Positions 6,165 to 47,126 of a stretch of DNA of 64,000 nucleotides are shown here, in pieces. The stretch comes from Alphaproteobacteria bacterium (GTDB lineage: Bacteria; Pseudomonadota; Alphaproteobacteria; Rs-D84), in the NCBI GenBank assembly GCA_015062445.1, contig SUUQ01000006.1, positions 1,142 through 65,141 of the forward strand. Reading direction: 5' to 3'. Position 1 is the first letter of the stretch; each line of letters starts with the position of its first letter. The notes beneath the pieces were generated by a model, which did no database searches, was not told the DNA's origin, and saw nothing but the letters and a program-made list of their open reading frames with translations. The position numbers and the translations under genes are program-made.

Positions 6165-6539
6165 TTAGATTACTTCTGGTGCCAAAGACACGATTTTCTG
6201 AACATCGTATTTACGACGAACTTCACGGGCGATTGGCCCAAAGATACGTGTTCCAATTGGTTCAAAGTTGTTTTTATTAATCAAAACAACTGCATTATCG
6301 TCAAAACGGATAATTGATCCATCTGGACGTTTTACTGGGAACTTTGTACGAACGATAATTGCACGCTGCACAGTACCTTTTTGAACTTTACCACGTGGAA
6401 TGGCTTCTTTAATTGCGACAACAATTTTGTCGCCAACTGTTGCATAGCGGCGATGAGAACCACCCAACACCTTGATACACATTGCCTTGCGTGCACCACT
6501 GTTGTCTGCAACGGTCATAACTGTTTCATTTTGAATCAT
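6165..6539 (-). CDS. rplN: 50S ribosomal protein L14
   Basis: [40 protein letters not shown]. Confidence 0.98.
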
Positions 6540-6653
6540 AACTTTAATCCTTTTCCTGCAGGCAGGGCAATCCCCCACCGCTTTGTTCTTGGGTTCCGAC
6601 TGTCGCACATATTTCAATCCCGAAATGCAACCTCAAAGACCCCGTTTGATTAT

Positions 6654-6923
6654 TTAGTCTACTACTTCTACTGCATCGTCTTTAGAAACACCAACGCGCC
6701 CCTTAACAACCCAAGACTTTGTCTTAGAGATTGGACGATGTTCTTCAATTGCCACGATTTCACCAACTTTGAATTCATTGTTTTCATCGTGTGCTTTGTA
6801 CTTTTTATTCTGCTTAACGAACTTACCATACAGTGGGTGACGGAAACGGCGTTCTACTTCTACAACGACTGTTTTGTCATTTGCTGTACTTACAACTGTT
6901 CCTTGCAGTATACGTCTTGGCAT
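6654..6923 (-). CDS. rpsQ: 30S ribosomal protein S17
   Basis: [27 protein letters not shown]. Confidence 0.98.
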
Positions 6924-7074
6924 AACTTATATCCCTTATGCTTGTTATTTAACCCACGGAATTTACATCATTTTTGACACAAAAACACATGGATTAAAAC
7001 CTTGTTCTTACTAATCTGACCCCGTATATATTATCTAAAAATTTAGAAATATCAACAAAAATCAGCAATTTTGT

Positions 7075-7266
7075 TTATTTTTTTGCCGCGTTCAGTTTTG
7101 TCTTTACACGTGCAATTTCACGACGGGTCTGACGCATAACATGTGTTTTTGGCATCTGACCTGCTGCATGTTGAAAACGTTGATTCATTTGTTCTTTTTT
7201 CAAATCAGTCAACTTGCTTTCCAATGCTTCAATCGTCAATTCTGTTTCAACTTTTTTTTCTGCCAT
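7075..7266 (-). CDS. rpmC: 50S ribosomal protein L29
   Basis: LKKEQMNQRFQHAAGQ, RREIARVKT. Confidence 0.95.
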   Translation of the reverse strand: MAEKKVETELTIEALESKLTDLKKEQMNQRFQHAAGQMPKTHVMRQTRREIARVKTKLNAAKK

Positions 7267-30359: not shown

Positions 30360-31865
30360 ATCCCCTGTCATTACCGGGCGAAATCGTGGCAATCCAGCCC
30401 TCTCCCATCGCTGTCATACCGGCGCAGGCCGGTATCCATTGTGTTTTTTCCCCCACTCATGTCATCCCGTAGCAATCCAGTAAATAGAAACCACACAAAA
30501 AAATCCCCCACCCTCTCATGTCATCCCGTGGCTGGACCACGGGACCCAGGTATATGCTTTTTTTTACTTCGTCACCAAACACAAAATAACAAATATAAAA
30601 ATTTGTCATCCCGTGGCTTGACCACGGGACCCAGGTGTATGCCTTTTTCTTACTTCAACACCAAACACAAAAACAACAAATATAAAAACTTGTCATCCCG
30701 TGGCTTGACCACGGGACCCAGGTGTTATCTTATAACAAATTATTCAAATCTTCGTACAAATCTCGCCATAATGGATTATATTTTTCAATTAAGTCTTTTT
30801 TCCAGTTTCTTTTCCAATCCTTCAACCTTTTCTCACGACGAATTGCATCATTCGCATTATCATGTCGTTCAAAATAAACCAATTTATCCACATTATATCT
30901 ATCCGTAAACCCCGGCAACAAATGATTTTTATGCTCGAAAATACGTTGAGGCAAATTACTGGTAACCCCAATATACAGTGTCCCGTTTCTAGAACTGGCC
31001 ATAATATACACATAGTAATATTTTTGTTCAAATCTCATAAAACAATGGTACATCACCTGGGTTCCGTGGTCAAGCCACGGAATGACAAAACACTTAACAC
31101 ACTTTATAAAACATAATTATCACCCAGAACTCCGTCATACCGGCATCGGGCCACCCACCCTCGTCATACCGGCGGCGGCCGGTATCCATTGCAACCTGTA
31201 TATTCAAATTTCAGTGTCTCTATTCCCCTCTGCACAGGGGGTTACCCGCAGGCCGGGGGCGGCACACAGGGCGGAGGGGTCTCAATCCCACCCTCGTCAT
31301 ACCGGCATCGGGCCACCCACCCTCGTCATACCGGCGGCGGCCGGTATCCATTGCAACCTGTATATTCAAATTTCAGTGTCCCTATTCCCCTCTGCACATG
31401 GGGGTTACCCGCAGGCCGGGGGCGGCACACAGGGCGGAGGGGTCTCAATCCTACCCCCGTCATACCGGCGCAGGCCGGTATCCATTGTGTTTTTTTCCCA
31501 TCCTCTCATGTCATCCCGTGGCTTGCCTTGTCGCACGAAGTTTTAACGAAGTGTGAACCACGGGACCCAGGTGTATGCCTTTTTTTACCTCAACCACATA
31601 ATTGGCAAGGTCTCCCCACCCTCTCATGTCATCCCGTGGCTTAACCACGGAATGACAAAACACTTAACACATTTTATAAAACATAATTATCACCCATAAC
31701 ATCGTCATACCGGCATCGGGCCACCCACACATCGTCATACCGGCGCAGGCCGGTATCCATTGCGTTCTGAACAATCCATAAAAAACAGAAAAAAAAACTT
31801 GTCATCCCGTGGCTTGACCACGGGACCCAGGTGTATGCCTTTTTTCTTACTTCAACACCAAACTA
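30360..31865. repeat. Field of GTCAT-headed REP-like palindromes (types tgtcatcccgtggcttgaccacgggacccag and cgtcataccggcgcaggccggtatccattg), including a ~162-bp direct duplication
   Basis: Type A at about 30519, 30604, 30691, 31056 (inverted), 31509, 31627, 31800; type B at about 30412, 31162, 31324, 31459, 31733; duplication about 31133-31294 versus 31295-31457. Confidence 0.93.
30730..31038 (-). CDS. Stand-alone GIY-YIG nuclease
   Basis: YYVYIMASSRNGTLYIGVTSNLPQRIFEHK, AIRREKRLKDWKRNWK, NPLWRDL. Confidence 0.93.
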   Translation of the reverse strand: MRFEQKYYYVYIMASSRNGTLYIGVTSNLPQRIFEHKNHLLPGFTDRYNVDKLVYFERHDNANDAIRREKRLKDWKRNWKKDLIEKYNPLWRDLYEDLNNLL

Positions 31866-31890
31866 AAAAAATCCCCCAAACAGGGGGAAA
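31866..31890 (-). terminator. Terminator at the end of the fibre-protein array
   Basis: Minus strand tccccc-tgttt-ggggga followed by a T tract. Confidence 0.7.
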
Positions 31891-31895
31891 TTAAA

Positions 31896-32930
31896 CTATT
31901 GAACCCAAATACTGGCCAATGTAGTCGACGTTTCAGACCCAGACGGCACCTTGCCGATCACACCACTGGTCTTGTCGGCGGTCACCGCACCACCAGCGAT
32001 GTCTGCTGTTGCAATTGTTCCGTCTGTAATATCCGCAGATGCAACCGCACTCTTGGTTGCCAAACTGCCCAACGTTGTCCCCTTCGTAACAGTAACCGTG
32101 CCATTAGCTGCTGTAACCGCTGTAACAACATTACCTGTTCCATCTGTCACGACATTCGTTGTTGTCAATGTCGCCTGTTTTCCTGAAATCGTTGTCGCAT
32201 AACCGTCATATGCAGAAACCTTGTCTGCGTTAATCCCCGAATTGACCGCCGCCAATTGGGCTGCTGTCAGTGTTGCTTGTTTGCCCTTCAATGCATTATC
32301 AATATCCGTCAACGCATCTCCAATTTCACTGGCGGAATCTGAAATCATTGTCTGTGTCAATTGAACCGTTGGCACAACACTGTCCTGACCATCAATTGGT
32401 GCTTCATTCACAATAACCGCATCATCAACCTTAGCATCTAATGCAGCCGCCAAAACCTTGTTCTGAACTGGATTAGTACTGCTTGCACTTAACGATGTAT
32501 CAACGGTTATCTGTGGTACTGTTGCACTGATTGTACCATTATCGATTGTAATATTTGACCCTGCTGTCAACTTATCCTGTTTACCCGCCAACGCAGCATT
32601 TGCAGCATCAGCAGCCGTCTGTGCATCACCTGCTGCTGCGACAGCAGTGTCTGCTGAACTTTTTGCAGAAACTGCATATGCACCCGCTGCTGCAGCATGT
32701 GCTTCGGCGGCAATTGCTGCGGTGCCTGCCCTGTTCACTGCACGATTAACATATGTCACACCTGCGATACCTGCACCTGCACCATTTTCATCTGTTGGGG
32801 CCAAATCTGTAAATACACTATGTGCACTGCCAATATCGGTATTATCTGACTTTGGTGCACTGGCAACTGCTGCACTTGCAGCAAACATAGCACAGAATGA
32901 TACAGCAAAAACAAATTTTGTCTTACTCAT
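31896..32930 (-). CDS. Secreted Ala/Thr-rich fibre-like protein F1
   Basis: Signal peptide; KQDKLTAGSNITI, KQATLT and TGNVVTAVT modules; start MSKT at 32930. Confidence 0.75.
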   Translation of the reverse strand: MSKTKFVFAVSFCAMFAASAAVASAPKSDNTDIGSAHSVFTDLAPTDENGAGAGIAGVTYVNRAVNRAGTAAIAAEAHAAAAGAYAVSAKSSADTAVAAAGDAQTAADAANAALAGKQDKLTAGSNITIDNGTISATVPQITVDTSLSASSTNPVQNKVLAAALDAKVDDAVIVNEAPIDGQDSVVPTVQLTQTMISDSASEIGDALTDIDNALKGKQATLTAAQLAAVNSGINADKVSAYDGYATTISGKQATLTTTNVVTDGTGNVVTAVTAANGTVTVTKGTTLGSLATKSAVASADITDGTIATADIAGGAVTADKTSGVIGKVPSGSETSTTLASIWVQ

Positions 32931-33127
32931 ATTTTCCCCCACGGTGTTTTCTCTATTATTCTCTCTCTTTTATGCTTTTACGCATTATACACTATATCGC
33001 CCACTTAACACAACAGTTAATATAACACATATTGTAAAAATCCATAAAATTTTTATAATATGGCGTGCTTTGTTTATCCTGGCGGGACAACAAATGCCCC
33101 ACCAGTTTAAACATACTTACGATTTCA

Positions 33128-34105
33128 TTAATACGAAACCTTTTCCCACTGCATTGTACCACTACGGATAACCAATGCACAATCAGATGTACCTTGTGCA
33201 CATGCGGTTGGGAATGTCGCCAGACTTGTCAAAGTGCCCTGCAAGTCCTGAACCTTGCCATCTGCATATGCCTTCAGTGTCGTATCCTGCGATGACTGTG
33301 ATGCTGCCAATTCATCCGCATCGATATAAATCTCTGCTGCTTCTGCTGCTGCTGCAATCGCTTCAGATTTTGCAGTTGCAACATTGCCTGTTGTCGCCAT
33401 ATCGGTCGTTGCAGTTGCAATGGCCTGATTCATCTCTGTTGTTGTTGAATAATCTTCCAATGCTGTTGCAATCTTGCCATCTGCCGCAGTACCTGCTGCT
33501 GTGATTGCATCTGCTTCTGCCTGGTCCGCATATGCTTTGGCATCAGTTAATGCCTGTGCTGCACTACCCTTAGAATCAGATGCTGCAATCGCTTCTGATT
33601 TTGCGGTTGCGGCTACACCGTCTGCATATGTTTTTGCCGCCTGTAAATTATCTGTATCTGCCTGTGCCAAATCATCCAAACTTTCAGTAATATCAGTCAA
33701 GTCATCCGAGATTTCCGACTTCGAATTTGCAATCGCATTTTCCATTCTGAAAATGGATGGTGCAACTTTATCTAAATCAGCATCTGCGACAGTCGCCCCG
33801 TCTGCAGCAATTGCATCCTGCTGCAATGCTGTTGCACCGGCTGCTGCGCCACTGCGGATTGTTGCCAGGTCACCAATTGTATCCTGCTTTGTCGCCAAAC
33901 CTTGTTCCAATGCTGTTTTTGTTGCTGCTGCCTGAACACCTGTATTCAGTTCATTAACAGCCGCTGTCAAGTTTGATTTTGCTGTTGTTGTCAATGTGCT
34001 AATATCACCAGTTTTTCCTTCCAAATATTCAACAGATGCGATTTCTGCATTTGCCGCCGTTACGGCCATCATCGCAACCAAAGACGCTGTAATAATTTTT
34101 TTCAT
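33128..34105 (-). CDS. Secreted Ala-rich coiled-coil fibre-like protein F2
   Basis: Signal peptide ending ANA; IASVEYL; AKAYAD repeats; C-terminal C-x6-C...W. Confidence 0.78.
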   Translation of the reverse strand: MKKIITASLVAMMAVTAANAEIASVEYLEGKTGDISTLTTTAKSNLTAAVNELNTGVQAAATKTALEQGLATKQDTIGDLATIRSGAAAGATALQQDAIAADGATVADADLDKVAPSIFRMENAIANSKSEISDDLTDITESLDDLAQADTDNLQAAKTYADGVAATAKSEAIAASDSKGSAAQALTDAKAYADQAEADAITAAGTAADGKIATALEDYSTTTEMNQAIATATTDMATTGNVATAKSEAIAAAAEAAEIYIDADELAASQSSQDTTLKAYADGKVQDLQGTLTSLATFPTACAQGTSDCALVIRSGTMQWEKVSY

Positions 34106-34197
34106 TTTTCTTTCCTTTCTTTCTTAATCTTTCCGTTTGCAGGGAAGATAAATCCCCACAAACAGATTATTCTATATTGTTATTTACCTGCTTTTTT

Positions 34198-35499
34198 TTA
34201 GAACCCTGTTTCACCAGTTGCACGTTCAATCACTTCCCATGTGTATGCAGAATTATTAAATGTCAACACACACTTGTTTGTTGGGTTTGAACATGGACCC
34301 TGTGGCTTTGGTATCGCCGCATTTGCTGTTGCCTGGGCCGCTGCCGCATCTGCTACCCCCTTGTCCGCCTGGGTCTGCGCCGCATCTGCTGCTGACTGGG
34401 CTGCTGCTGCATCTGCCAATGCCTGGTTTGCATCTGCCTGTGCTGCATCTGCTGCTGACTGGGCTGCATCTGCCGCCGCCTGCGCTGCTTCTGCTGCAGA
34501 CTGTGCATTTGCTACTGCCGTATCATTTGACGATTTGTATGCATCCAAATCTGCCTGGGCATCATCACCGGCTTTCTTTGCCGCTGCAACCGCTGCATTA
34601 TTTGTTGTTTTATAGCTGGCCAAATCATTTGCAACCTGTGTTGCACTGCCACTGGCTGTTGCAATCTGACCTTCTAAATCTGTTTTCAGGGCCGTATCTT
34701 TTTCATCGGCATATGCCTTGGCATCTGCCAATGCCTGATTTGCCTTGTTTGTTGCATCTGTTGCCGCCGCCGCAATGGCTTCTGATTTTGCAGTTGCTGC
34801 ACTGCCGGCTGTATCATAGTTTGTTGCCAAACCATCTGCATAGGCCTTGGCATCTGTCAATGCCTGATTTGCCTTGGATGTTGCATCTGCTGCCGCCGCC
34901 TCAATGGCTTCTGATTTTGCAGTTGCTGCACTGCCGGCTGCATCATAGTTGTCTGCCAAACCATCTGCATAGGCCTTGGCATCTGTCAGAACCTGTGTAT
35001 CTGCTGCCTTGTACGCCGCATCCATAGCAGAAATCGCATCTGCATTATCACCAATCAGCCCACGAAGCTCGGCATCGTCATATGTCGCACTAGACTGGGC
35101 ATCTGCAATCATTTGAACAACGGTCTTACCTTCTGCAACTGCACCAATTTTGTCGTTAATCGCACTATCAGCAGTTTCAAATGCAGTTTTTTGTGCCGCA
35201 TCTAAACCATCTGCATAGTCTTTTGCCGCCTGTAAATTTGTTGTATCGGCCTGTGCCAATTCTGCAACCTTTGTATCATAAGCTGTCTGTGCAACTTTGG
35301 CATTAATTTTGCCTTCTAATTCTGACTTTGCAGTACTTAATGCATTTGCAGCTGTTGCTTCTGCTGCGGATTGTGCGGCCGATGCCTCGGTTGCTGCCTT
35401 GGCATCAACGTATGCCTTGGATGCAACGGCTGCATTTGCTGCATTGACGGAAACCAAACCCATCAAAACTGTAAAAATACCTGCTGTTAATTTTTTCAT
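34198..35499 (-). CDS. Secreted Ala-rich coiled-coil fibre-like protein F3
   Basis: Signal peptide ending ANA; VASKAYVD; 43-aa (129-bp) tandem repeat; C-terminal C-x6-CVL...W; start moved to 35499. Confidence 0.78.
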   Translation of the reverse strand: MKKLTAGIFTVLMGLVSVNAANAAVASKAYVDAKAATEASAAQSAAEATAANALSTAKSELEGKINAKVAQTAYDTKVAELAQADTTNLQAAKDYADGLDAAQKTAFETADSAINDKIGAVAEGKTVVQMIADAQSSATYDDAELRGLIGDNADAISAMDAAYKAADTQVLTDAKAYADGLADNYDAAGSAATAKSEAIEAAAADATSKANQALTDAKAYADGLATNYDTAGSAATAKSEAIAAAATDATNKANQALADAKAYADEKDTALKTDLEGQIATASGSATQVANDLASYKTTNNAAVAAAKKAGDDAQADLDAYKSSNDTAVANAQSAAEAAQAAADAAQSAADAAQADANQALADAAAAQSAADAAQTQADKGVADAAAAQATANAAIPKPQGPCSNPTNKCVLTFNNSAYTWEVIERATGETGF

Positions 35500-35612
35500 G
35501 TCTCCCTTCCTTTTTTTTAGGTTATCCCATTTTATCATTTTTTGCCTAGGTTGGTAAAGGCAAAAAATGAATATTTTGGGATTTTTTTATTAATTTCATT
35601 AATCCAATGTTA

Positions 35613-37076
35613 TTAGTTTAAATAATCATTAACAGGTTCAGTCAATGGCACCCATGAAATTGTATTTGTGGCCTTGTTAATTGACAGAACACAGTCCTGT
35701 GTTTCGCATGCTGCTGGTGCACTAATCTTTTTTGCCAACTCTGTTTCAATTTCAGATTTTGCACTCGCCAAAGCAGTGGCCGCTGTTTGTTCTGCCGCCG
35801 CCTGTGCTGCATTTGCCTTGGATGTTGCATCTGTTGCCGCTTCAGACTTTGCTGTTGCAATCTGACCTTCTAAATCAGATTTCAGTGCTGCATCTTTGCC
35901 ATCCGCATATGTTTTTGCATCTGTCAATGCCTGGGCTGCCGCTGCCGCTGCTGCATCCGCTGCATCCTGGGCTGCATCAGCCGCAGATTTTGCCGTGGCT
36001 GCGTCTGCTACACCCTGTTCAGCAGTTGTTTTTACACCCGCCAACGCTGTATCATTTGACGATTTGTATGCATCCAAATCTGCCTGGGCATCATCACCAG
36101 CTTTCTGGGCTGCTGCTACCGCTGCATTATTTGACGTTTTGTATGAATTCAAATCTGCCTGGGCATCATCACCGGCTTTCTTTGCCGCTGCAATTTCACT
36201 TGAATTTGATGTCTTGAACAAATTCATTTCATCTTCCGACACATAATTTGAATCCATCGCCGCAATCGCTTCGGTATTTGACTTAACCGCACCATTTGCC
36301 AATTCATCTGTGTATGCCTTGGCATCTGTCAATGCATCTGCTGCACTGCCGGCTGCATCATAGTTGTCTGCCAAACCATCTGCATATGACTTTGCTGCTG
36401 CTTCTGCCGCATCCGCTTCACTTTCTGCATATGACTTTGCTGCTGCTTCTGCCGCATCCGCTTCGCTTTCTGCATATGTCTTAGCTGCTGCTAATGCCGC
36501 ATCTGCACTGCCGGCTGAATCATAGTTGACTGCCAAACCATCTGCATACGATTTTGCAGACTGCAATGTTGTTGCATCCGCTCCTGCAAAATCTGTTCTG
36601 ATTTGTGCGTCTGCCGCTTCACGTGCATCTTTTTCTGCACTGACCGCTGATGCAATTTGATCTGCGACACCTGTTTCACCCGTCAAAGCTTTAACCGCAT
36701 CAATCTGTGATTGCAAACTGGTATCAGTATTACCCAAAGCGGTCATTTTTTCGTTATACACTGTCAGGTCAACCTTTTTCGCCAATTCTGTATCAACATA
36801 ATCTTTACCTGCCTTGGTCGCCAATGTTCCAGACACAGTTGTCAATGTACTTGCATTTGTCGCAATTGACTGTGCATTTGTTGCAATATCTGCTGTGTTT
36901 TTGTTTACTTTTGCATCATTTTCTGCTTTATATTCATTCAATGCAGTTGTAACTGAACCAGATTTTGCATCGACATAGTCCTTGGATGCGACATTAATTG
37001 CCGCATCTGCTGCCCCTGTGGCACCCATCAAGATTGCCGCCATAAAGCCAGAAAACATAATATTTTTTACTTTCAT
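35613..37076 (-). CDS. Secreted Ala-rich coiled-coil fibre-like protein F4
   Basis: MKVKNIMFSGF signal; VASKDYVD; 15-aa repeat; C-terminal C-x4-CVL...W. Confidence 0.78.
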   Translation of the reverse strand: MKVKNIMFSGFMAAILMGATGAADAAINVASKDYVDAKSGSVTTALNEYKAENDAKVNKNTADIATNAQSIATNASTLTTVSGTLATKAGKDYVDTELAKKVDLTVYNEKMTALGNTDTSLQSQIDAVKALTGETGVADQIASAVSAEKDAREAADAQIRTDFAGADATTLQSAKSYADGLAVNYDSAGSADAALAAAKTYAESEADAAEAAAKSYAESEADAAEAAAKSYADGLADNYDAAGSAADALTDAKAYTDELANGAVKSNTEAIAAMDSNYVSEDEMNLFKTSNSSEIAAAKKAGDDAQADLNSYKTSNNAAVAAAQKAGDDAQADLDAYKSSNDTALAGVKTTAEQGVADAATAKSAADAAQDAADAAAAAAAQALTDAKTYADGKDAALKSDLEGQIATAKSEAATDATSKANAAQAAAEQTAATALASAKSEIETELAKKISAPAACETQDCVLSINKATNTISWVPLTEPVNDYLN

Positions 37077-37144
37077 TTTTTTTCCTTTCTTTCGTTAATT
37101 ATGCCTGGCCCATTATGGCGGGTTTTGGCATGGTTAGCTTATTA

Positions 37145-38542
37145 TTATAAACTTTCACCTGTGATTATATCTGTTGTACCGTCACCGTTAACAACCGCAA
37201 CCTGATTCAGTGTGATATTCCCGAAACCGTCAGAAATCACCAGATATCCACCCTTGGTTGTCAGAATGCCTGATGCACTGACAAAGTCCCCATCTTCGAT
37301 CATTCCCTGCAAGGTTTCATCTGCCTGTTCACGTGCCGTTGCTTCATCTGCAATTGCCTGGGCATTTGTTGAAATCTTGCCATCCAGGGTTGTGTCTGCT
37401 GCTTTATATGCATCTTCTAATGCTTTATCTGCCGCTGCAAATTCACTACGGATTGTTGTGTCTGCCGCCTGCAGGTCATCAATTTCACCTTCGGCTGTTG
37501 CAACACGTGTTGTCAGCGCACCCAAGTTAGTAGAAGTTCCAGACAAAGACTGATTCAATTCTGCAATTTCATCGTCTGTGTATTTTTTTGCATCTGTCAA
37601 AACCTTGGCATCTGCCTGTTCGCGTGCACTTGCTTCTGCTGTGATTTTGCCATCCAATGCTGTATCTGCTGCTGCAAAGTCGCTACGAATTGTTGTATCT
37701 GCCGCCACCAGGTCTGCAATATCTTCTGCCATTGCTGTGTCTGCATTTTCACGTGCAGTTGCTTCTGCAGAAATCAAACCACGAACTGCGGTATCATCAT
37801 ATGTTGCCGCCGTCTGTGCATCAGCAATCATATCTACAACCGTCTTACCTTCTGCAACGGTACCGATTTTATTGCTAATTGCTGTGTCCGCAGCTTCACG
37901 TGCACTTGCTTCTGCTGTGATTTTGCCATCTAATGCTGTATCAGCCGCAGCAAAGTCGCTACGAATTGTTGTATCTGCCGCCACCAGGTCTGCAATATCT
38001 TCTGCCATTGCTGTGTCTGCATTTTCACGTGCGGTTGCTTCTGCAGAAATCAAACCACGAACTGCGGTATCATCATATGTTGCCGCCGTCTGTGCATCAG
38101 CAATCATATCTACAACCGTCTTACCATCTGCAACGGTACCGATTTTATTGCTAATTGCTGTGTCCGCTGCTTCACGTGCACTTGCTTCTGCTGTGATTTT
38201 GCCATCTAATGCTGTATCTGCCGCCGCAAAGTCAGTTCTGATTTGTGCATCCGCCTGTGCACGTGCACTTGCTTCTGCATCAATCTTGCCCTGCAGTGCC
38301 TGGTCTGCCGCCTGCATATCTGTGGTTGTTGCAAAAGGCGTCAAATCCAATGTGCTTTTAACAACATTGTTTGTGATGTCGATACCTGTACCTGCAGACA
38401 AGTTATCCTGTTTTTTTGCCAATTCAGTATCAACATACGACTTGCTGGTCAGTTCATACTGCACGGCTGCATCGGCTGCACCGCATACACCAGCAAAGAT
38501 TGCCGCTGCAAATCCTGAAAACATAATGTTTTTCACTTTCAT
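37145..38542 (-). CDS. Secreted Ala-rich coiled-coil fibre-like protein F5
   Basis: MKVKNIMFSGF signal; TSKSYVD; 92-aa (276-bp) tandem repeat; start moved to 38542. Confidence 0.78.
   Translation of the reverse strand: MKVKNIMFSGFAAAIFAGVCGAADAAVQYELTSKSYVDTELAKKQDNLSAGTGIDITNNVVKSTLDLTPFATTTDMQAADQALQGKIDAEASARAQADAQIRTDFAAADTALDGKITAEASAREAADTAISNKIGTVADGKTVVDMIADAQTAATYDDTAVRGLISAEATARENADTAMAEDIADLVAADTTIRSDFAAADTALDGKITAEASAREAADTAISNKIGTVAEGKTVVDMIADAQTAATYDDTAVRGLISAEATARENADTAMAEDIADLVAADTTIRSDFAAADTALDGKITAEASAREQADAKVLTDAKKYTDDEIAELNQSLSGTSTNLGALTTRVATAEGEIDDLQAADTTIRSEFAAADKALEDAYKAADTTLDGKISTNAQAIADEATAREQADETLQGMIEDGDFVSASGILTTKGGYLVISDGFGNITLNQVAVVNGDGTTDIITGESL
37625..38232. 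repeat. 276-bp tandem repeat (two copies plus a partial third) inside F5
   Basis: tgcacttgcttctgctgtgattttgccatc recurs at 37625, 37901 and 38177. Confidence 0.92.
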
Positions 38543-38591
38543 TTTTTCCTTCCTTTCTTTCGTTAAATTATCGCGGTTTAACAACCGAATT

Positions 38592-40739
38592 TTATTGACC
38601 TTCGACAACACTTACGGTTACCCAAGTCGCCTTATCCCCTTCTGATTTCAACATGGCCATTGTACCATCTGGCAGTTGCATATTTATAAAGTCTGCTTCA
38701 ACCTTATCTTTATATGCCAACGCACCCAAAGTTGCCAATTCTGCATCAATACCACTGATTGCTTCGATTACCTGTTGCATTGCTGTATCAGTAGCATAAT
38801 CTGCTGCAATTTCTTCAACCTTGCTTTGCAGTTCTTTCACAGTCGCATCAGACGCAGTGCTGCCACTTAATTCAGTAACCACATCTTGCAAATCCTTCAA
38901 ATCAGCTGCCGCTGCATAATCACCGGCCGCCTGTTTTGTTGCAATCGCCGCATCCAGGGTTGACTTAACCGAATTTAACTGTTCTGTCGTAACCAAATTT
39001 GTCGGCACATCTTCCAAATCATTATAAGAACCAGTTTTTGCAACTTCATGCAACGTCAACAATTCTGCCGCATTTTCATTTGCCAAATTCTGGGCCGCAT
39101 CTGCCACAGACTTTGCCGTCGCCGCATCTGCCACCCCTTTGTCTGCCTGGGCTTGCGCTGCTGCTGCCGCCGCCGCTGCTGCTGCCGCCGAATTTGCCGC
39201 AGTTGCCGCATCCGCTACACCTTTGTCTGCCTGCGCCAAAACTTCTGCAACCTCAGCATCATTCAACAACTTATATTCATCCAAGGCACCCGCCACAGTC
39301 GCCGCATCCGCCACACCTTTATCCGCCTGGGATTGTGCTGCTGCTGCTGCCGCCGCCGCTGCTGCAATTGCCTTGCCTGTTGCACCATCTGCACTTAATG
39401 CTGTTTCTAATGCAGAAATCTTACCATCTTGTACATCCTGTTCACCTTCAATTGCTGTGATTTTCCCCTCAGCCGTATCAACGCGCCCTGTCAACGCAGA
39501 CAAATCCGCCGTTGCACCACCCAAAGAACCTGTCAAATCTGCAATTTCCGCATCCGTATACTGCTTTGATTCTGCCAATGCCGCCGCCGCAGAACCCGCC
39601 GCATCATAATTTCCTGCCAAACCATCTGCATAATCCTTGGCCGACTGCAATGTTGTTGCATCTGCCGCCGCAAACCCCGCCTTGATTTCAGCATCTGCTG
39701 CTTTATACGCCACATCCATGGCCGCAACTTTATCGTCTAATGCCTTGTCCGCATTTTCACGCAGAACAGCTTCGGCCGCAATCAACCCCTCTAATTCATC
39801 AATCGAGGCCTGCAAAGCCGTCTGTGCTGCTGTCAATTCGGTTTTTTTCGCATAATCATCTTCTATAACCTTTACACGATTAACCAGTGCCGTCAGATCC
39901 GCACCTGTTGCCGAACTGCCCTGCAATGCTACAACATCACTCTTCAAAGTTTCCAAATCAGCCGCCGCCGCATATTCACCAGCCGCCTGTTTGCCTGCAA
40001 TTTCCTGTTCTAACGCGGTCTTCAAATCATTTAATGCAACTTTGGTCGCAAAATCACCCAAATCACCAGTCACATCATTCAATGCCGCCTGCAAGGCATC
40101 AAATTCTGTCTTGCCCGCAAAATCTTTCGCCAAATCATATGTCTTTGTCACATCATCCTGAACAACGGTTAAAACCTTGTTTGCATACTCTACACTCGTA
40201 TGCTCACCACTGACCGCTTCTATATCCGCCGCCAACTTATCAACATTCAACTTCAGATCTGACGCATCTTTTTCCAACGCATCAACAGACGCATTCAAAT
40301 CTTCGAACTGTGCCGGAATATTGCTATCAGAATTTTCCTGATACCCCATCCACTGTTCCAAAACCTCGATACGGGTCTGCAAATTACCACTTGTCGAACT
40401 GTTATTAATTACCGTTTTATCTGGCGCACTGGACGTTGCCAAATACTTACCAATCGACAAACGTGGTGTTGCCGCCACACGTGATGCCGCCGTACGCGTT
40501 GCCGCCGCACGCGTTGAACCATCTGACGACGCCCCCAAACGCATTGCCCCCGCACGCACCGCATTCGCTGCTGTGGACGTTGTCGTTCCCGACTTTGCTG
40601 TCGCCGCACTGGACGTGCCAGAATATGTACCTGCACCACCCAATGAACGTACCGCTGTCGCACCATTTGCCGGTGCAACAATCGCCGCACACAGCACACA
40701 CACTATTGATAATGTTGATATTTTCAGTTCGTTTTTCAT
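38592..40739 (-). CDS. Secreted Ala-rich coiled-coil fibre-like protein F6 (first and longest gene of the array)
   Basis: Signal peptide; Arg/Ala/Thr-rich N-terminus; four ADKGVADAA copies; two KQAAG(E/D)YAAAADL copies; VAKTGSYNDL module. Confidence 0.78.
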   Translation of the reverse strand: MKNELKISTLSIVCVLCAAIVAPANGATAVRSLGGAGTYSGTSSAATAKSGTTTSTAANAVRAGAMRLGASSDGSTRAAATRTAASRVAATPRLSIGKYLATSSAPDKTVINNSSTSGNLQTRIEVLEQWMGYQENSDSNIPAQFEDLNASVDALEKDASDLKLNVDKLAADIEAVSGEHTSVEYANKVLTVVQDDVTKTYDLAKDFAGKTEFDALQAALNDVTGDLGDFATKVALNDLKTALEQEIAGKQAAGEYAAAADLETLKSDVVALQGSSATGADLTALVNRVKVIEDDYAKKTELTAAQTALQASIDELEGLIAAEAVLRENADKALDDKVAAMDVAYKAADAEIKAGFAAADATTLQSAKDYADGLAGNYDAAGSAAAALAESKQYTDAEIADLTGSLGGATADLSALTGRVDTAEGKITAIEGEQDVQDGKISALETALSADGATGKAIAAAAAAAAAAQSQADKGVADAATVAGALDEYKLLNDAEVAEVLAQADKGVADAATAANSAAAAAAAAAAAQAQADKGVADAATAKSVADAAQNLANENAAELLTLHEVAKTGSYNDLEDVPTNLVTTEQLNSVKSTLDAAIATKQAAGDYAAAADLKDLQDVVTELSGSTASDATVKELQSKVEEIAADYATDTAMQQVIEAISGIDAELATLGALAYKDKVEADFINMQLPDGTMAMLKSEGDKATWVTVSVVEGQ

Positions 40740-40830
40740 TCAGTTCTCTCTACTGCTTTCAGTTTATCACATTTTGCGAATCGGGGTCAATACCTTTTTC
40801 TGCTTTTTCCTAAAAATCTTGCTACTTTTT

Positions 40831-41547
40831 TTAGAACTCGTACCGCAATCCGATTGAAATCGAATTATCCAGGATTAAACCAACCTTGTTTGAAATATCA
40901 TATTCATCATACGGTGGTTCAACATACTGAAATGAACGATTATGTTCTGGCCCAACCAGTGCTGACAAGCGATACCGCAAATCCAACCACAGGTTATAAT
41001 CCAACTTATGTGCATAGCCGAACATCAGCGCCCCCATCGGCGACACACCACGCTCGCTGTCGTCACCACCGACAAAATCTGCACCATACCACTTCACTGT
41101 TGGCAACGCGATACCAGCACCTGCCCCAACATAAAAGCCATTTGCAAAATCATAGTACGCATTTGCGATTACATATGGGATAGTCAACTTGAACGTTGTA
41201 CCAACATCATCATGTTCATGTGAACCAATCAGCCCACCTTCAACTTCTGCACGCCAGAAATAATCCAAACGATATCCCGCAAACAGACCGCCCCCAAAGA
41301 CAACCTCTGTATACGATTCATTATCCAACATTTCACTGTTTGGCGCATCAGTATCATATTCATTTTCCCAATTCAGCAAACTCAAACTGGCACGTCCACC
41401 GATATACCACCCTGACTTTTCTTTTTCATAATAATCATAGTTAACAGTATAACCACCATCATTATTACGAACCAAATGACTTGGTGCTGCATTTACTGCT
41501 GTGGCTGTTACGGCCGCCAACACTGCCACTGACAAAATTTTTTTCAT
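40831..41547 (-). CDS. Small outer-membrane beta-barrel protein (Opa/Ail/OmpA-like, about 8 strands)
   Basis: Signal peptide; GWYIGG, WRAEVEG, ANAYYDF, FYVGAGAG, LDLRYR; C-terminal IGLRYEF. Confidence 0.85.
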   Translation of the reverse strand: MKKILSVAVLAAVTATAVNAAPSHLVRNNDGGYTVNYDYYEKEKSGWYIGGRASLSLLNWENEYDTDAPNSEMLDNESYTEVVFGGGLFAGYRLDYFWRAEVEGGLIGSHEHDDVGTTFKLTIPYVIANAYYDFANGFYVGAGAGIALPTVKWYGADFVGGDDSERGVSPMGALMFGYAHKLDYNLWLDLRYRLSALVGPEHNRSFQYVEPPYDEYDISNKVGLILDNSISIGLRYEF

Positions 41548-45806: not shown

Positions 45807-47126
45807 TTACGGCAATCTGGGCGACCAAGTCGGTTCAACACCATTTATACCGTCTGGCAATTCGATATCATAAATATTTTGCCCTGTGATATCGACACTG
45901 CGAATATGACTGATACGTTCAATATCATCAACATCACGTTCTGTTTCATAATAGACGATGCGCCGTGATCCTGGGGCCCATGAAGGGGCCTCCATAAACC
46001 AGCCACCGGCCAGTATTTTTTCATTTCTGCCCCGTGGGTCCATAATCCCGACATAGAATGTATCATCCGCCATTTTTGTAAATGCGATAAATTGCCCATC
46101 TGGCGACCAGGCCGGTGTTGCATACCGCCCATTTCCATATGTCAAACGTTTAACTTCGCCCGATTCCAGGTCCAGTACATGAATCTGTTGCCGTCCAGAT
46201 CTGTCGCTGTTAAATGCCATTTTTTTACCGTCTGGCGAATAAGATGGACTGGTATTAATTGAATTACCAAAGGTTAATTGACGCAGTTTTTTTGTTTCAA
46301 TATCATATTCATATATATGTGTCACCCCTTTTTTCACCAGCGAAATGGCAACTTTTTTACCATCCGGCGAGAATCGTGGCGAAAAGTTCATTCCCCCAAA
46401 CATTCCCAACCTGCGCTGTTCACCAGTATCCAGATCTAAACTCCACACCATTGGATCATCATCATAGTATGACAAGAACACAATTGATTGCATATTTGGC
46501 GAAAAGTGCGGCGACATAACAAACGTATCTTTATCTGACAGATATCGCATCCCATAACCATCTTGGTCCATAATTGCCATACGTTTTGTACGATTATAAA
46601 TTGGTCCTGTTTCTGCAATGAACACGATTTGCGTATCAAAGTACCCGATTTCCCCGGTTAATCTTTCATATATTGCATCTGCCATGATATGCGCCATACG
46701 GCGAACAGACTTGCGCGATGCAACCAGCGATTGTGCCTCTATCTGTTCTTTGCCATCAACGTCCCAAACAAAAAACTCTAATCTATATCTATCTTTGGAA
46801 TCTTTGGTTAACTTTGCCTGAACCAAGACCTGTGTTTTTATTGCCTTCCATGATTGAAAGTTTGGCATTGCATGCATTTTAACATATTCTGGGAACGCAT
46901 CATGATTAACGATACGAAACAGCCCAGTACGCTTCAGGTCATTTTCCACCACTTCACGTATCATGGTGGCATCCTTGCTGCGTGCACCGTCTGCAGTCTC
47001 GAATTTTTGAACAGCGATTGATATTGGCTTTGCAGCCCCTGCAACGATATCCACTTTTAATTCTGCCATGGCACCACCGACAGACAACAGAACCATCACC
47101 AACATGGTGAATAACTTCTTCAGCAT
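45807..47126 (-). CDS. tolB: Tol-Pal system beta-propeller protein TolB
   Basis: AHIMADAIYERLTGEIGYFDTQIVF, AIMDQDG, SPDG repeats. Confidence 0.95.
   Translation of the reverse strand: MLKKLFTMLVMVLLSVGGAMAELKVDIVAGAAKPISIAVQKFETADGARSKDATMIREVVENDLKRTGLFRIVNHDAFPEYVKMHAMPNFQSWKAIKTQVLVQAKLTKDSKDRYRLEFFVWDVDGKEQIEAQSLVASRKSVRRMAHIMADAIYERLTGEIGYFDTQIVFIAETGPIYNRTKRMAIMDQDGYGMRYLSDKDTFVMSPHFSPNMQSIVFLSYYDDDPMVWSLDLDTGEQRRLGMFGGMNFSPRFSPDGKKVAISLVKKGVTHIYEYDIETKKLRQLTFGNSINTSPSYSPDGKKMAFNSDRSGRQQIHVLDLESGEVKRLTYGNGRYATPAWSPDGQFIAFTKMADDTFYVGIMDPRGRNEKILAGGWFMEAPSWAPGSRRIVYYETERDVDDIERISHIRSVDITGQNIYDIELPDGINGVEPTWSPRLP

What the first reader, a model, noticed from the sequence alone, without database searches (positions are those of the whole stretch)
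31896..41547. Six-gene array of secreted, anchorless, tail-fibre-like proteins beside a beta-barrel: candidate new surface-appendage system
Seen: six co-oriented genes (about 325-715 aa) with a putative TTGACC-18-TAAACT promoter at about 40761-40790 and a terminator at 31866. All have Sec-type signal peptides. F2-F5 have an (A/T)SxxY(V/L) motif right after it (F1 has VTYVN further in). They have long Ala-rich stalks with AKxYAD/YTD motifs (F2-F6), short beta-like inserts (KQDKLTAGSNITI, VAKTGSYNDL, LGxLAxK), and small C-terminal caps, three with P..C-x4/6-C(V/A)L...W. None has a YadA-type barrel, lipobox or C-terminal TM. Known: YxD-containing coiled coils typify trimeric autotransporter stalks and phage tail fibres, which need a C-terminal barrel or a virion; no phage genes are nearby. 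Inference: a multi-subunit trimeric fibre or adhesin family exported and anchored by an unknown route, perhaps through the conserved N-terminal motif and the adjacent barrel at 40831-41547.
Basis: partly seen in the sequence, partly recalled or inferred. Interest (0 to 1): 0.85.

Follow-up and report, generated by a model that had tools for sequence, protein, structure and literature searches.

The report
Secreted trimeric fibre gene array
A gut bacterium with a tiny genome carries a conserved row of six related genes for exported, three-stranded fibre proteins built from phage-tail-fibre-like modules, probably surface fibres for contacting other cells, though how they leave and stay on the cell is unknown.

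Summary
Six co-oriented paralogous genes (31896-40739, minus strand) encode acidic, Ala-rich proteins. Each has a Sec-type signal peptide, a mosaic coiled-coil stalk and a small C-terminal beta-hairpin cap. None has a lipobox, a second membrane segment, a YadA anchor or any Pfam/NCBIfam family above cut-off.

A three-copy model of F2 gives an in-register parallel trimer (ipSAE 0.72, best control 0.00).

The array is lineage-specific. It occurs in Candidatus Enterousia and sister genera (order Rs-D84), gut bacteria with ~1 Mb genomes that a published genome analysis proposes depend on partner cells. Gene order is fixed across species (barrel, F6, F5, F4, F3, F2, F1). Termini are conserved and stalks are shuffled. 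Copy number runs from 0 to 7.

Stalk modules recur in signal-less, phage-tail-fibre-like proteins.

The barrel link is weak. The barrel stays in place in two genomes that have no fibre genes, and it is one of several PF13505 paralogs.

Best reading: exported homotrimeric fibres. They are most like Bdellovibrio MAT fibres in concept and like fibritin in architecture, but belong to neither family. Export across the outer membrane and anchoring remain unknown.

The parts
38592..40739 (-). F6: 715-aa fibre protein and first gene of the array. After the signal peptide comes a Ser/Thr/Ala/Arg-rich region with conserved words (VRSLGGAGTY, R-G-G-x-M-R-V in relatives (AGAMRL in this window's F6), PRLSIGKYL), then coiled coil and a C-terminal hairpin (KATWVTVSVV).
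   Evidence: residues 397-450 resemble the P22-like tail needle gp26, E 0.0014; N-terminal region found in 176 of 233 genus genomes, usually once per genome.
37145..38542 (-). F5: 465-aa fibre protein (ORF extends to 38611; likely start is MKVKNIMF). It carries a 276-nt tandem duplication at 97% identity (37619-38233). The cap has no Cys pair.
35613..37076 (-). F4: 487-aa fibre protein. Six AKxYAD-type motifs. Cap with C457-x4-C462 followed by VLS...W.
   Evidence: (38% identity to F3, E 3e-69).
34198..35499 (-). F3: 433-aa fibre protein (ORF extends to 35538). Very conserved signal peptide MKKLTAGIF...; cap C403-x6-C410 VLT...YTWEVIER.
   Evidence: AF2 model of the last 110 aa, pLDDT 93.3, with a long helix, a short helix and a beta-hairpin at 87-92/95-100.
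33128..34105 (-). F2: 325-aa fibre protein. Cap C302-x6-C309 ALV...WEKVSY.
   Evidence: three copies give ipSAE 0.72 against 0.00 for the best control; monomer model is helical with breaks and a hairpin at 308-314/317-323.
31896..32930 (-). F1: 344-aa fibre protein and last gene of the array. It has more beta-type tail-fibre modules (KQDKLTAGSNITI, NPVQNKV). Its conserved C-terminus is VPSGSETSTTLASIWVQ.
40761..40790 (-). Promoter-like site TTGACC-18-TAAACT with TG before the -10 element, in the 91-nt gap between the barrel gene and F6.
   Evidence: This is a pattern match only.
31870..31892 (-). Terminator-like hairpin (CCCCC/GGGGG stem) followed by T7, just after the F1 stop codon.
40831..41547 (-). 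Upstream neighbour: a 238-aa outer-membrane beta-barrel (OMP_b-brl) ending in LRYEF. Its position is conserved. Whether it belongs to the fibre system is doubtful.
   Evidence: PF13505, 38.4 bits against a cut-off of 28.7. (22 of 24 genus genomes). (one of several paralogs). (still present in genomes without fibre genes).

Best explanation
The six genes encode a lineage-specific set of paralogous, Sec-exported, acidic homotrimeric fibres.

**Proposed pathway**
1. Each precursor carries a cleavable signal peptide and crosses the inner membrane unfolded.
2. The small C-terminal beta-hairpin cap emerges last. In F2-F4 it carries a Cys pair that could be oxidised outside the cytoplasm. The cap brings three chains into register.
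3. The Ala-rich stalk then zips up into a parallel coiled coil, interrupted by short beta or loop modules.
4. The fibres, about 30-70 kDa per chain, end up at or beyond the cell surface of a partner-dependent gut bacterium. There they mediate contact with other cells or surfaces.

**Evolution**
- The termini that define each of the six types are kept.
- The stalks are rebuilt by duplication and by exchange of modules that are also found in phage tail fibres.

**What is shown and what is inferred**
- Shown by sequence: the genes, their paralogy, their order, conserved ends with shuffled stalks, and the absence of known anchors.
- Predicted: the trimer and the helix-plus-hairpin end.
- Inferred: signal-peptide cleavage, folding order, surface location and a role in adhesion.
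- Unknown: the route across the outer membrane and the anchor.
For: **Export signal**
- The n/h/c regions, with small residues at -3/-1, occur in all six window proteins.
- An SP-like start is seen in 58 of the 61 ORFs scanned. Two of the 61 were FtsX false positives. The 3 ORFs without such a start include at least one cut by a contig end and one with a miscalled start.

**No membrane anchor**
-. Mature pI is 4.05-4.26.

**Paralogy**
- 15 of 15 pairs match at E <= 5.5e-8. The composition correction was switched off, so these E-values are inflated by the Ala-rich composition.
- F3-F4 are 38% identical over 479 columns.

**Trimer**
- The model supports binding; it does not show it.
- Scores were 0.72, 0.72 and 0.74, and the best of 3 controls was 0.00.
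- In the tool's calibration the mark was reached by 20 of 30 proteins solved as pairs of one chain, and by 1 of 23 solved as single chains.
- The runs agree in at least 84% of contacts, and pLDDT is at least 83.
- The lowest-error contacts join the same residue numbers (189-189, 161-161). Contacts recur every 3-4 residues from residue 21 to 323.
- My own alignment and three copies differ from the tool's calibration set-up.

**Cap and stalk**
- AF2 gives a helix plus hairpin at pLDDT 93.3.
- F6 residues 397-450 resemble the trimeric P22-like needle gp26 (E 0.0014).

**Real, conserved genes**
- The order barrel-F6-(F5)-F4-F3-(F2)-F1 is the same in the loci of 11 other species, with 4-7 fibre genes wherever the array is complete.
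- The F6 N-terminus is found in 176 of 233 genus genomes, in 10 of 38 genomes from other genera of the family, and in 0 of 29 genomes from other families of the order.

**Conserved ends, shuffled stalks**
- Nearly invariant columns lie only at the two ends of alignments A1 and A2.
- There are tandem duplications at 97% and 93% identity, and modules shared between genes at 70-85% DNA identity.

**Phage-fibre kinship of the modules**
- Signal-less proteins P0080, P0037, P0124 and P0130 carry the same modules.

**Lifestyle**
- Passages of PMC12306168 propose that Rs-D84/Enterousia take metabolites from other cells.

**Precedent**
- Bdellovibrio MAT fibres.
Against: **No evidence of expression or location**
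- No RNA run was listed, and there are no proteomic data.
- Signal peptides were judged by simple rules only.

**Limits of the trimer prediction**
- It is a model's own confidence, and coiled coils may score from likeness to solved ones.
- The monomer model of F2 is poor (pLDDT 64.8).

**No export or anchoring route identified**
- There is no dedicated outer-membrane export gene in the locus.
- The only secretin is unlinked and is a core gene: 181 of 183 genus genomes, including ones with no F6 match.
- Only one Omp85 is present, so there is no TpsB- or TamA-like partner.
- No anchor was found, so the fibres could equally be released, or stay in the periplasm.

**Dispensability**
- The array is absent in some species: 2 of the 5 genomes inspected for that reason.
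- 57 of 233 genus genomes gave no F6 N-terminus match.
- The array is therefore dispensable within the genus.

**Disulfide uncertain**
- DsbB was not found and only one DsbA-like thioredoxin is present.
Confidence: 0.6

Rival explanations
1. The six proteins are subunits of one appendage that is exported or anchored through the adjacent beta-barrel, with the conserved N-terminal motif acting as the docking element.
For: - The barrel lies directly upstream on the same strand in this window and in 11 of 11 genus genomes chosen because fibre and barrel hits lay close together.
- Fixed gene order and six distinct, conserved end types suggest non-redundant roles.
- G001 has the barrel followed by a single fibre gene.
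Against: - The barrel keeps its place with no fibre genes in G002 and G007.
- It is found in 22 of 24 genus genomes, against 13 of 24 for the F3 or F4 queries.
- It is one of 8 PF13505 matches in this genome.
- At 238 aa it is of the small-barrel class, which is not known to translocate folded trimers (my knowledge, not a tool result).
- A promoter-like site separates it from F6.
- The N-terminal word also occurs inside stalks.
- No binding test was run.
Confidence: 0.12
2. The fibres form a variable surface coat. Its main role would be to change what phages, predators or the host immune system see, not to bind partners. The shuffled stalks would be the point of the system.
For: - Stalks are mosaic and differ strongly between species while the ends stay the same.
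- There are recent tandem duplications.
- Copy number runs from 0 to 7.
- Modules are shared with phage fibres.
Against: - No switching machinery was seen in the locus, such as an invertase, silent cassettes or a DGR (ORF listing).
- The type-specific caps are conserved, which suggests a conserved binding or assembly role.
- A coat role and an adhesin role do not exclude each other.
Confidence: 0.15
3. The proteins stay in the cell envelope as periplasmic or outer-membrane-associated scaffolds, for example spacers or tethers, beside the pal, tolB and ftsEX genes.
For: - They have a Sec signal but no recognisable route across the outer membrane.
- The neighbours are envelope genes: a pal-like OmpA protein, TolB and FtsEX.
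- F6 has a weak TolA_bind_tri match (E 0.03, below the cut-off).
Against: - Several hundred residues of coiled coil would be much longer than a periplasm is wide (inference from about 0.15 nm per residue, my knowledge).
- Rapid stalk turnover and loss of the whole array in some species do not fit a core envelope part.
- Kinship with phage-fibre modules points to an outward-facing role.
Confidence: 0.08
4. The array is left over from a prophage or tailocin tail-fibre module.
For: - Modules are shared with signal-less, phage-like fibre proteins.
- There are weak PHROG matches: F2 to a tail-fibre family at E 9e-4, and F6 at E 7e-6 to a family of unknown function.
Against: - All six proteins carry signal peptides.
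- The flanks are housekeeping genes: lepA, rbfA, ftsEX, tolB.
- The chromosomal site is the same across species.
- There are no other copies in the genome.
- The tblastn search against 50,697 phage records gave nothing for F5, and only a 38-residue module for F1.
Confidence: 0.03

Closest known systems
Bdellovibrio bacteriovorus MAT (mosaic adhesive trimer) fibres (PMC10769870; passages read)
   Same: - Chromosomal bacterial genes, not in a phage.
- Signal peptide present.
- Trimeric along the whole length.
- Mosaic build related to phage tail fibres.
- Many paralogs.
- One conserved end, and an anchor that is still unknown.
- The organism lives on other cells.
   Different: - MAT proteins have a conserved beta-rich N-terminal domain of about 130 aa. 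Here the conserved mature N-terminus of F1-F5 is only a few residues before the stalk.
- MAT stalks are beta-prisms or beta-helices with large, diverse tips, or an S74 protease. Here the stalks are mostly coiled coil and the caps are small conserved hairpins.
- No S74 or other Pfam family is present.
- No sequence match to any solved structure, including the MAT tips that paper describes, was found at E <= 1 for F3, and none beyond gp26 for F6.
- MAT genes are scattered. These form one ordered array.
Phage T4 fibritin (gp wac)
   Same: - Similar size: 487 aa, the same as F4.
- Parallel trimeric coiled coil broken by short inserts.
- A small C-terminal beta-hairpin unit at the end of the last helix.
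   Different: - No detectable sequence relation. hhalign of three cap profiles against the last 120 residues of fibritin gave a probability of 0.1-0.2%.
- The fold of the cap could not be matched.
- Fibritin is a virion part without a signal peptide.
Trimeric autotransporter adhesins (type Vc, YadA/UspA1 class)
   Same: - Signal peptide.
- Trimeric coiled-coil stalks with Y-x-D-type words and short beta inserts.
- An adhesin role is suspected.
- The helix of the F3 model aligns to a UspA1 stalk fragment no better than to other long helices (Z 7.2).
   Different: - There is no C-terminal YadA anchor in the proteins, or anywhere in the genome.
- The polarity is different: the trimerising unit is a soluble C-terminal hairpin.
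Phage tail fibres and tail needle (P22-like gp26)
   Same: - Shared repeat modules such as KQDxIxDLxxIRSGA, GKTVVxMI...TYDD and AKAYADGL..NYD.
- An F6 stretch matches gp26 at E 0.0014.
   Different: - These proteins have signal peptides.
- No virion genes are nearby.
- The chromosomal site is fixed.

Membership tests
Trimeric autotransporter adhesin (type Vc) | C-terminal YadA-like membrane anchor (PF03895) | tested here: not met
   None of the six proteins has a Pfam match to it. There are 0 matches in the whole 98%-complete genome, and the control rang in E. coli.
Trimeric autotransporter adhesin (type Vc) | Trimeric stalk | tested here: met
   Prediction only. F2 x3 gave ipSAE 0.72 against a best control of 0.00, with in-register contacts.
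Bdellovibrio MAT superfamily | [quoted passage not shown] | tested here: not met
   A signal peptide is present. In the F2 and F3 orthologue alignments the conserved N-terminal block ends within about 10 residues of the cleavage site, and helices start by residue 46 in the F2 model. F6 instead has a low-complexity Ser/Thr-rich region.
Bdellovibrio MAT superfamily | Trimeric fibre with diversified C-terminal tip domains or an S74 protease/chaperone | tested here: not met
   A trimer is predicted. The C-termini, however, are small hairpin caps conserved within each type, and no Peptidase_S74 or other family is present.
Bdellovibrio MAT superfamily | Display on the cell surface | not testable with these tools
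   Needs antibodies, tags or proteomics.
Fibritin-like (T4 gp wac) | C-terminal foldon | tested here: inconclusive
   A helix-plus-hairpin is modelled at pLDDT 93.3. There is no sequence relation (hhalign probability 0.1-0.2%). Fold searches matched only the helix.
Fibritin-like (T4 gp wac) | Part of a virion (neck whisker) | tested here: not met
   Signal peptides are present, flanks are housekeeping genes, and there are no other phage genes.
Phage tail fibre | Shared repeat modules with fibre proteins of phage type | tested here: met
   P0080, P0037, P0124 and P0130 lack a signal peptide, have phage-fibre-type ends and carry the same modules. That their ends are 'phage type' is my reading; no call names them.
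OMP_b-brl (PF13505), for the neighbouring barrel only | Pfam score above the curated cut-off | tested here: met
   38.4 bits against a cut-off of 28.7, covering profile positions 3-175.

The most novel reading that the evidence does not exclude
The six types are not redundant adhesins. They would be the ordered parts of one composite attachment organ of a cell-dependent bacterium.
- F6 would be the base piece. It is the only type with a long special N-terminal region and is usually single-copy.
- The other trimers would add on end to end, or side by side, through their type-specific caps and generic N-terminal starts.
- F1 would be the distal tip.
- Gene order would mirror assembly order, as in the T4 long tail fibre genes.
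- The one-gene version in G001, which has an F6-type N-terminus fused to an F1-type C-terminus, would be the minimal base-plus-tip form.

This would be a Sec-dependent, phage-fibre-derived appendage with a new export and anchoring route.
Probability: 0.1. Interest if true: 0.85.

Novelty: new variant of a known kind. Interest (0 to 1): 0.55.

Why it matters
Candidatus Enterousia and its order are widespread in animal and human guts. They have genomes of about 1 Mb and are thought to live off other cells, yet nothing is known about how they make contact (PMC12306168, passages).

This array takes up 0.8% of the genome and is conserved in order across species. It is the most obvious candidate for that contact apparatus.

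It would also be a second, independent case, after Bdellovibrio, of a bacterium turning phage-fibre building blocks into its own Sec-exported fibres. In both cases the way across and onto the outer membrane is unsolved, so the two could be studied side by side.

The small hairpin caps may be useful as compact trimerisation units if the prediction holds.

Tried and rejected
**Family searches.** Pfam, PHROGs and NCBIfam gave no family above cut-off for F1-F6.

**PDB sequence searches.**
- F3: nothing.
- F1: only a chance hit, E 0.69.
- F6: only gp26.

**Phage collection (tblastn).**
- F5: no match.
- F1: one 38-residue module in a Methanomassiliicoccales virus record. BLAST's low-complexity filter may hide matches.

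**ESM Atlas, for F6.** Best feature score was 0.85 and structure TM was at most 0.19. Both are below the level the tool calls a lead.

**Fold of the cap.**
- Foldseek gave nothing better than E 8.6.
- VIA-align wide matched only the long helix (Z <= 7.4, tied with hundreds of coiled coils), so the cap itself stayed untested.

**Foldon idea.** I recalled a likeness to the T4 foldon, fetched T4 wac and found no sequence support.

**Secretin as the export route.** It is a core gene of the genus and says nothing either way. T2SSE ATPases and a prepilin peptidase exist but are unlinked.

**Sequencing runs.**
- 24 DNA holders were listed, from animal gut or faeces metagenomes in 14 studies.
- No RNA holder was listed, so nothing can be said about expression.

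**Laying contigs of four runs.**
- X1 gave exact pieces and may be the source sample.
- In X7, X8 and X11, contigs of relatives matched patches and showed joints inside the array (for example 34122 to 37071 and 34963 to 36424).
- At 88% likeness, in repeats and in mixed organisms, such joints are not interpretable, so I draw nothing from them.

**Other limits.**
- The barrel-fibre and fibre-fibre binding tests could not be run: the single complex job went to the F2 trimer.
Supplementary Tables 3-4 of PMC10769870 list MAT-like proteins of other bacteria and could bear on whether this family has been listed there. I could not see them.

**Not-in-print claim.** It rests on these searches:
- 'Enterousia': 16 papers.
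- 'Rs-D84': 12 papers.
- 'mosaic adhesive trimer': 7 papers, the 7 listed titles all concern Bdellovibrio, a related predatory genus (Peredibacter) or bacterial predation.
- 'fibritin-like/foldon-like' together with signal peptide/outer membrane: nothing relevant among the 12 listed.
- A word search in PMC12306168 for adhes/surface/secretion: 0 occurrences.


Full report
**What is there.**
- On the minus strand, between a terminator-like hairpin (31892-31870) and a promoter-like site (40790-40761), lie six ORFs of 325-715 codons. A 238-codon ORF sits directly upstream.
- Likely true starts shorten F1, F3 and F5 slightly (MSKTKF, MKKLTAG, MKVKNIMF).
- All six proteins are Ala-rich (21-31% Ala) and acidic (mature pI 4.05-4.26). 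Outside their first ~35 residues they have no hydrophobic segment, and they have no lipobox.
- Each starts with a lysine-rich n-region, a hydrophobic core and small residues at -3/-1. These are my own rule scans; no dedicated predictor was available.
- None of the six has a Pfam or NCBIfam family above cut-off.
- The upstream ORF is an OMP_b-brl barrel (38.4 bits against 28.7).
- The next gene on the other strand is a Pal-like OmpA lipoprotein, followed by ftsE and ftsX. TolB lies at 45807-47126.

**They are paralogs built from modules.**
- All 15 pairs match in BLASTP. F3-F4 are 38% identical at E 3e-69, and the weakest pair, F1-F4, has E 5.5e-8. The composition correction was off, so the weak values are inflated.
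- In the DNA, F5 carries a 276-nt tandem duplication at 97% identity and F3 a 129-nt one at 93%. Stretches of 150-160 nt are shared between different genes at 70-85% identity.

**Which organism, and how widespread.**
- The window lies in a 1.05-Mb assembly of 15 contigs, 98% complete.
- A scan of one genome per species with the F3 alignment found 58 loci. Their record titles read Candidatus Enterousia, uncultured Alphaproteobacteria or 'Rickettsiales' MAGs from animal and human guts. Two small contigs in bins labelled Clostridia and Bacteroides fragilis are probably binning errors.
- The F4 and F3 proteins match 13 of 24 genomes of the same genus and 0 of 16 from other families of the order.
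- The N-terminal 140 residues of F6 are a sharper probe. They match 176 of 233 genus genomes, 10 of 38 genomes from other genera of the family, and 0 of 29 genomes from other families.
- In the large protein collections the relatives that carry a name are all 'hypothetical protein [Alphaproteobacteria bacterium]': 5 of 120 listed rows and 8 of 120.
- In its own genome the family occurs only at this locus.

**The array is an ordered set, not a loose cluster.**
- I fetched the loci of 11 genus genomes whose fibre and barrel hits lay close together. This is a biased choice.
- In all 11 the order is the same:
  - pal/ftsEX side;
  - barrel;
  - an F6-type gene (signal peptide MKxELKISTLSIVCVLC..., then VRSLGGAGTY);
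  - optionally an F5-type gene (MKVKNIAFSGFAAAIL);
  - an F4-type gene (MKVKNIAFSGFMAAILMG..., cap C-x4-7-C-VLS...W..T.PV);
  - an F3-type gene (MKKLTAGIF..., cap C..NKCVL...Y.WE.IER, or a Cys-less YVLT...YAWE form);
  - optionally an F2-type gene (MKKILTxSLxAxMAV, cap C...CAL...WE);
  - an F1-type gene (ending IPxGSxTxTTxAxIWVE);
  - then a DedA-like gene, rbfA and lepA.
- Complete arrays hold 4 to 7 genes.
- In alignments of F2-type (31 rows) and F3-type (42 rows) proteins, the nearly invariant columns lie only in the signal peptide, the few residues after it, and the cap. Between them the stalks differ in length and module content.

**Structure.**
- Three copies of mature F2 (residues 21-325, with my alignment) gave scores of 0.72, 0.72 and 0.74 against 0.00 for the best of three controls.
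- By the tool's calibration the mark was reached by 20 of 30 proteins solved as pairs of one chain and by 1 of 23 solved as single chains.
- The runs share at least 84% of contacts, and pLDDT is at least 83. The model supports binding; it does not show it.
- My alignment and the three copies differ from the tool's calibration, and coiled coils may pass by likeness to solved ones.
- The lowest-error contacts join equal residue numbers, and contacts recur with 3-4 spacing from residue 21 to 323. That is what an in-register parallel coiled coil gives.
- As a monomer, F2 models poorly (pLDDT 64.8). It shows helices with breaks and a terminal hairpin at 308-314/317-323.
- The last 110 residues of F3 model well (pLDDT 93.3): a 70-residue helix, a short helix in the Cys loop, and a hairpin at 87-92/95-100.
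- F6 residues 397-450 resemble the trimeric tail needle gp26 (E 0.0014).

**Relation to phage fibres.**
- Among the database relatives are long proteins without signal peptides. They carry the same modules many times and have ends that I read as phage-fibre type (P0080, P0037, P0124, P0130).
- One F6-type protein, P0122, carries 14 copies of such a module.
- The cultured-phage collection gave almost nothing.
- So the building blocks are shared with phage fibres, but the genes here sit at a fixed chromosomal site among housekeeping genes and carry export signals.

**The barrel.**
However, I also fetched five genus genomes in which the fibre queries had found nothing, or little, near the barrel.
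  - In G002 and G007 a diverged barrel (31-37% identity) sits between ftsEX and the DedA-like gene with no fibre gene at all.
  - G001 has the barrel and a single 316-residue fibre with an F6-type start and an F1-type end.
  - G020 and G018 have the barrel, one F6-like gene of about 947 codons, and other fibre genes further off among unrelated genes.
- The barrel is found in 22 of 24 genus genomes.
- It is one of 8 PF13505 matches in this genome, 5 of them over the cut-off.
- The barrel therefore has a life of its own. The fibres may still use it, but position alone does not say so.

**The N-terminal motif.**
- The strict word [SGNDA][KQT]xYV[DTE] lies near the N-terminus in 27 of 60 array proteins. 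It also occurs inside 6 of them (8 copies).
- In this window, F4 residue 90 reads GKDYVDTELAKK and the start of F5 reads SKSYVDTELAKK.
- I therefore read it as the usual start of a stalk segment, not as a dedicated anchor. In F1-F5 types the mature protein seems to begin almost at once with stalk.
- F6-type proteins differ. About 100 residues of Ser/Thr/Ala/Arg-rich sequence with three conserved words precede the first coiled coil.

**Export.**
- The genome has one Omp85 protein (768 codons), so no two-partner or TamA-type partner. It has no YadA anchor and three TolC-like proteins.
- It has one secretin with a lipoprotein-like start, next to a TcpQ-domain gene. It also has two T2SSE ATPases and a prepilin peptidase elsewhere.
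- A secretin-based system could in principle pass folded periplasmic trimers. However, the secretin is present in 181 of 183 genus genomes of at least 90% completeness, including genomes with no F6 match, so its presence tells nothing.
- A DsbA-like thioredoxin is present and DsbB was not found.

**What it most likely is.**
- A family-restricted set of Sec-exported homotrimeric fibres.
- By architecture they are closest to fibritin: coiled coil with inserts and a small C-terminal hairpin.
- By biology they are closest to the MAT fibres of Bdellovibrio: a signal peptide, a phage-fibre-derived mosaic trimer, many paralogs, an unknown anchor, and an organism that lives on other cells.
- They fail the defining features of both families and of trimeric autotransporters (see Membership tests).
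- The published view of Enterousia/Rs-D84 gives a plausible use as contact fibres. That view is: no respiration, no flagella, few transporters, and probably obligate symbionts or parasites that take metabolites from other cells (passages of PMC12306168).
- Surface location, function, export route and anchoring are all inferred or unknown.

**Novelty.**
- I found no paper that mentions these proteins (searches listed under Tried and rejected; supplements could not be read).
- The kind of thing, a bacterial Sec-exported phage-fibre-like trimer, is known. This coiled-coil, hairpin-capped, ordered-array form in a reduced-genome gut alphaproteobacterium is a new variant.

Noticed in passing
window 30403-31860: Between the array's terminator and the DedA-like gene lie two kinds of short palindromic repeat. 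One has the core GTCATCCCGTGGCTTGACCACGGGAC and the other GTCATACCGGCGCAGGCCGGTATCC. There are 4-6 copies of each, around a small GIY-YIG-like ORF (30730-31056). Metagenome contigs pile up here at 5-40 times the depth of the flanks, so the repeats are multi-copy in the genome or the community.
   Followed up: partly
own genome, contig C9 240403-247423 (L030); outside the window: A TcpQ-domain gene is followed by a 542-codon secretin with a lipoprotein-like start. After it comes an ORF of more than 1295 codons with no Pfam family that runs off the contig end. In several relatives the secretin lies 25-35 kb from the fibre array on the same contig.
   Followed up: partly
L094 (G001:C10) 6310-7260: One species has, after the barrel, a single 316-residue fibre gene. 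It joins an F6-type signal peptide and VRSFGG start to an F1-type end (IPVGSE...AAIWIE). It may be a natural 'base plus tip' chimera, or the minimal form of the system.
   Followed up: no
L090 (G002:C7) and L092 (G007:C4): Two species of the genus have ftsEX, the barrel, the DedA-like gene, rbfA and lepA in a row, with no fibre genes and no pal-like gene at this site. They are natural array-less comparators.
   Followed up: partly
window 37619-38233: F5 has a 276-nt unit repeated 2.2 times at 97% identity, which gives a 92-residue duplication. It looks like a recent stalk-lengthening event.
   Followed up: no
window 40831-41547 and orthologues: After its signal peptide the barrel has a conserved extension of about 25 residues (APSxLxRNxxGxYxVxYDY) before the first predicted strand. 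Its role is unknown.
   Followed up: no
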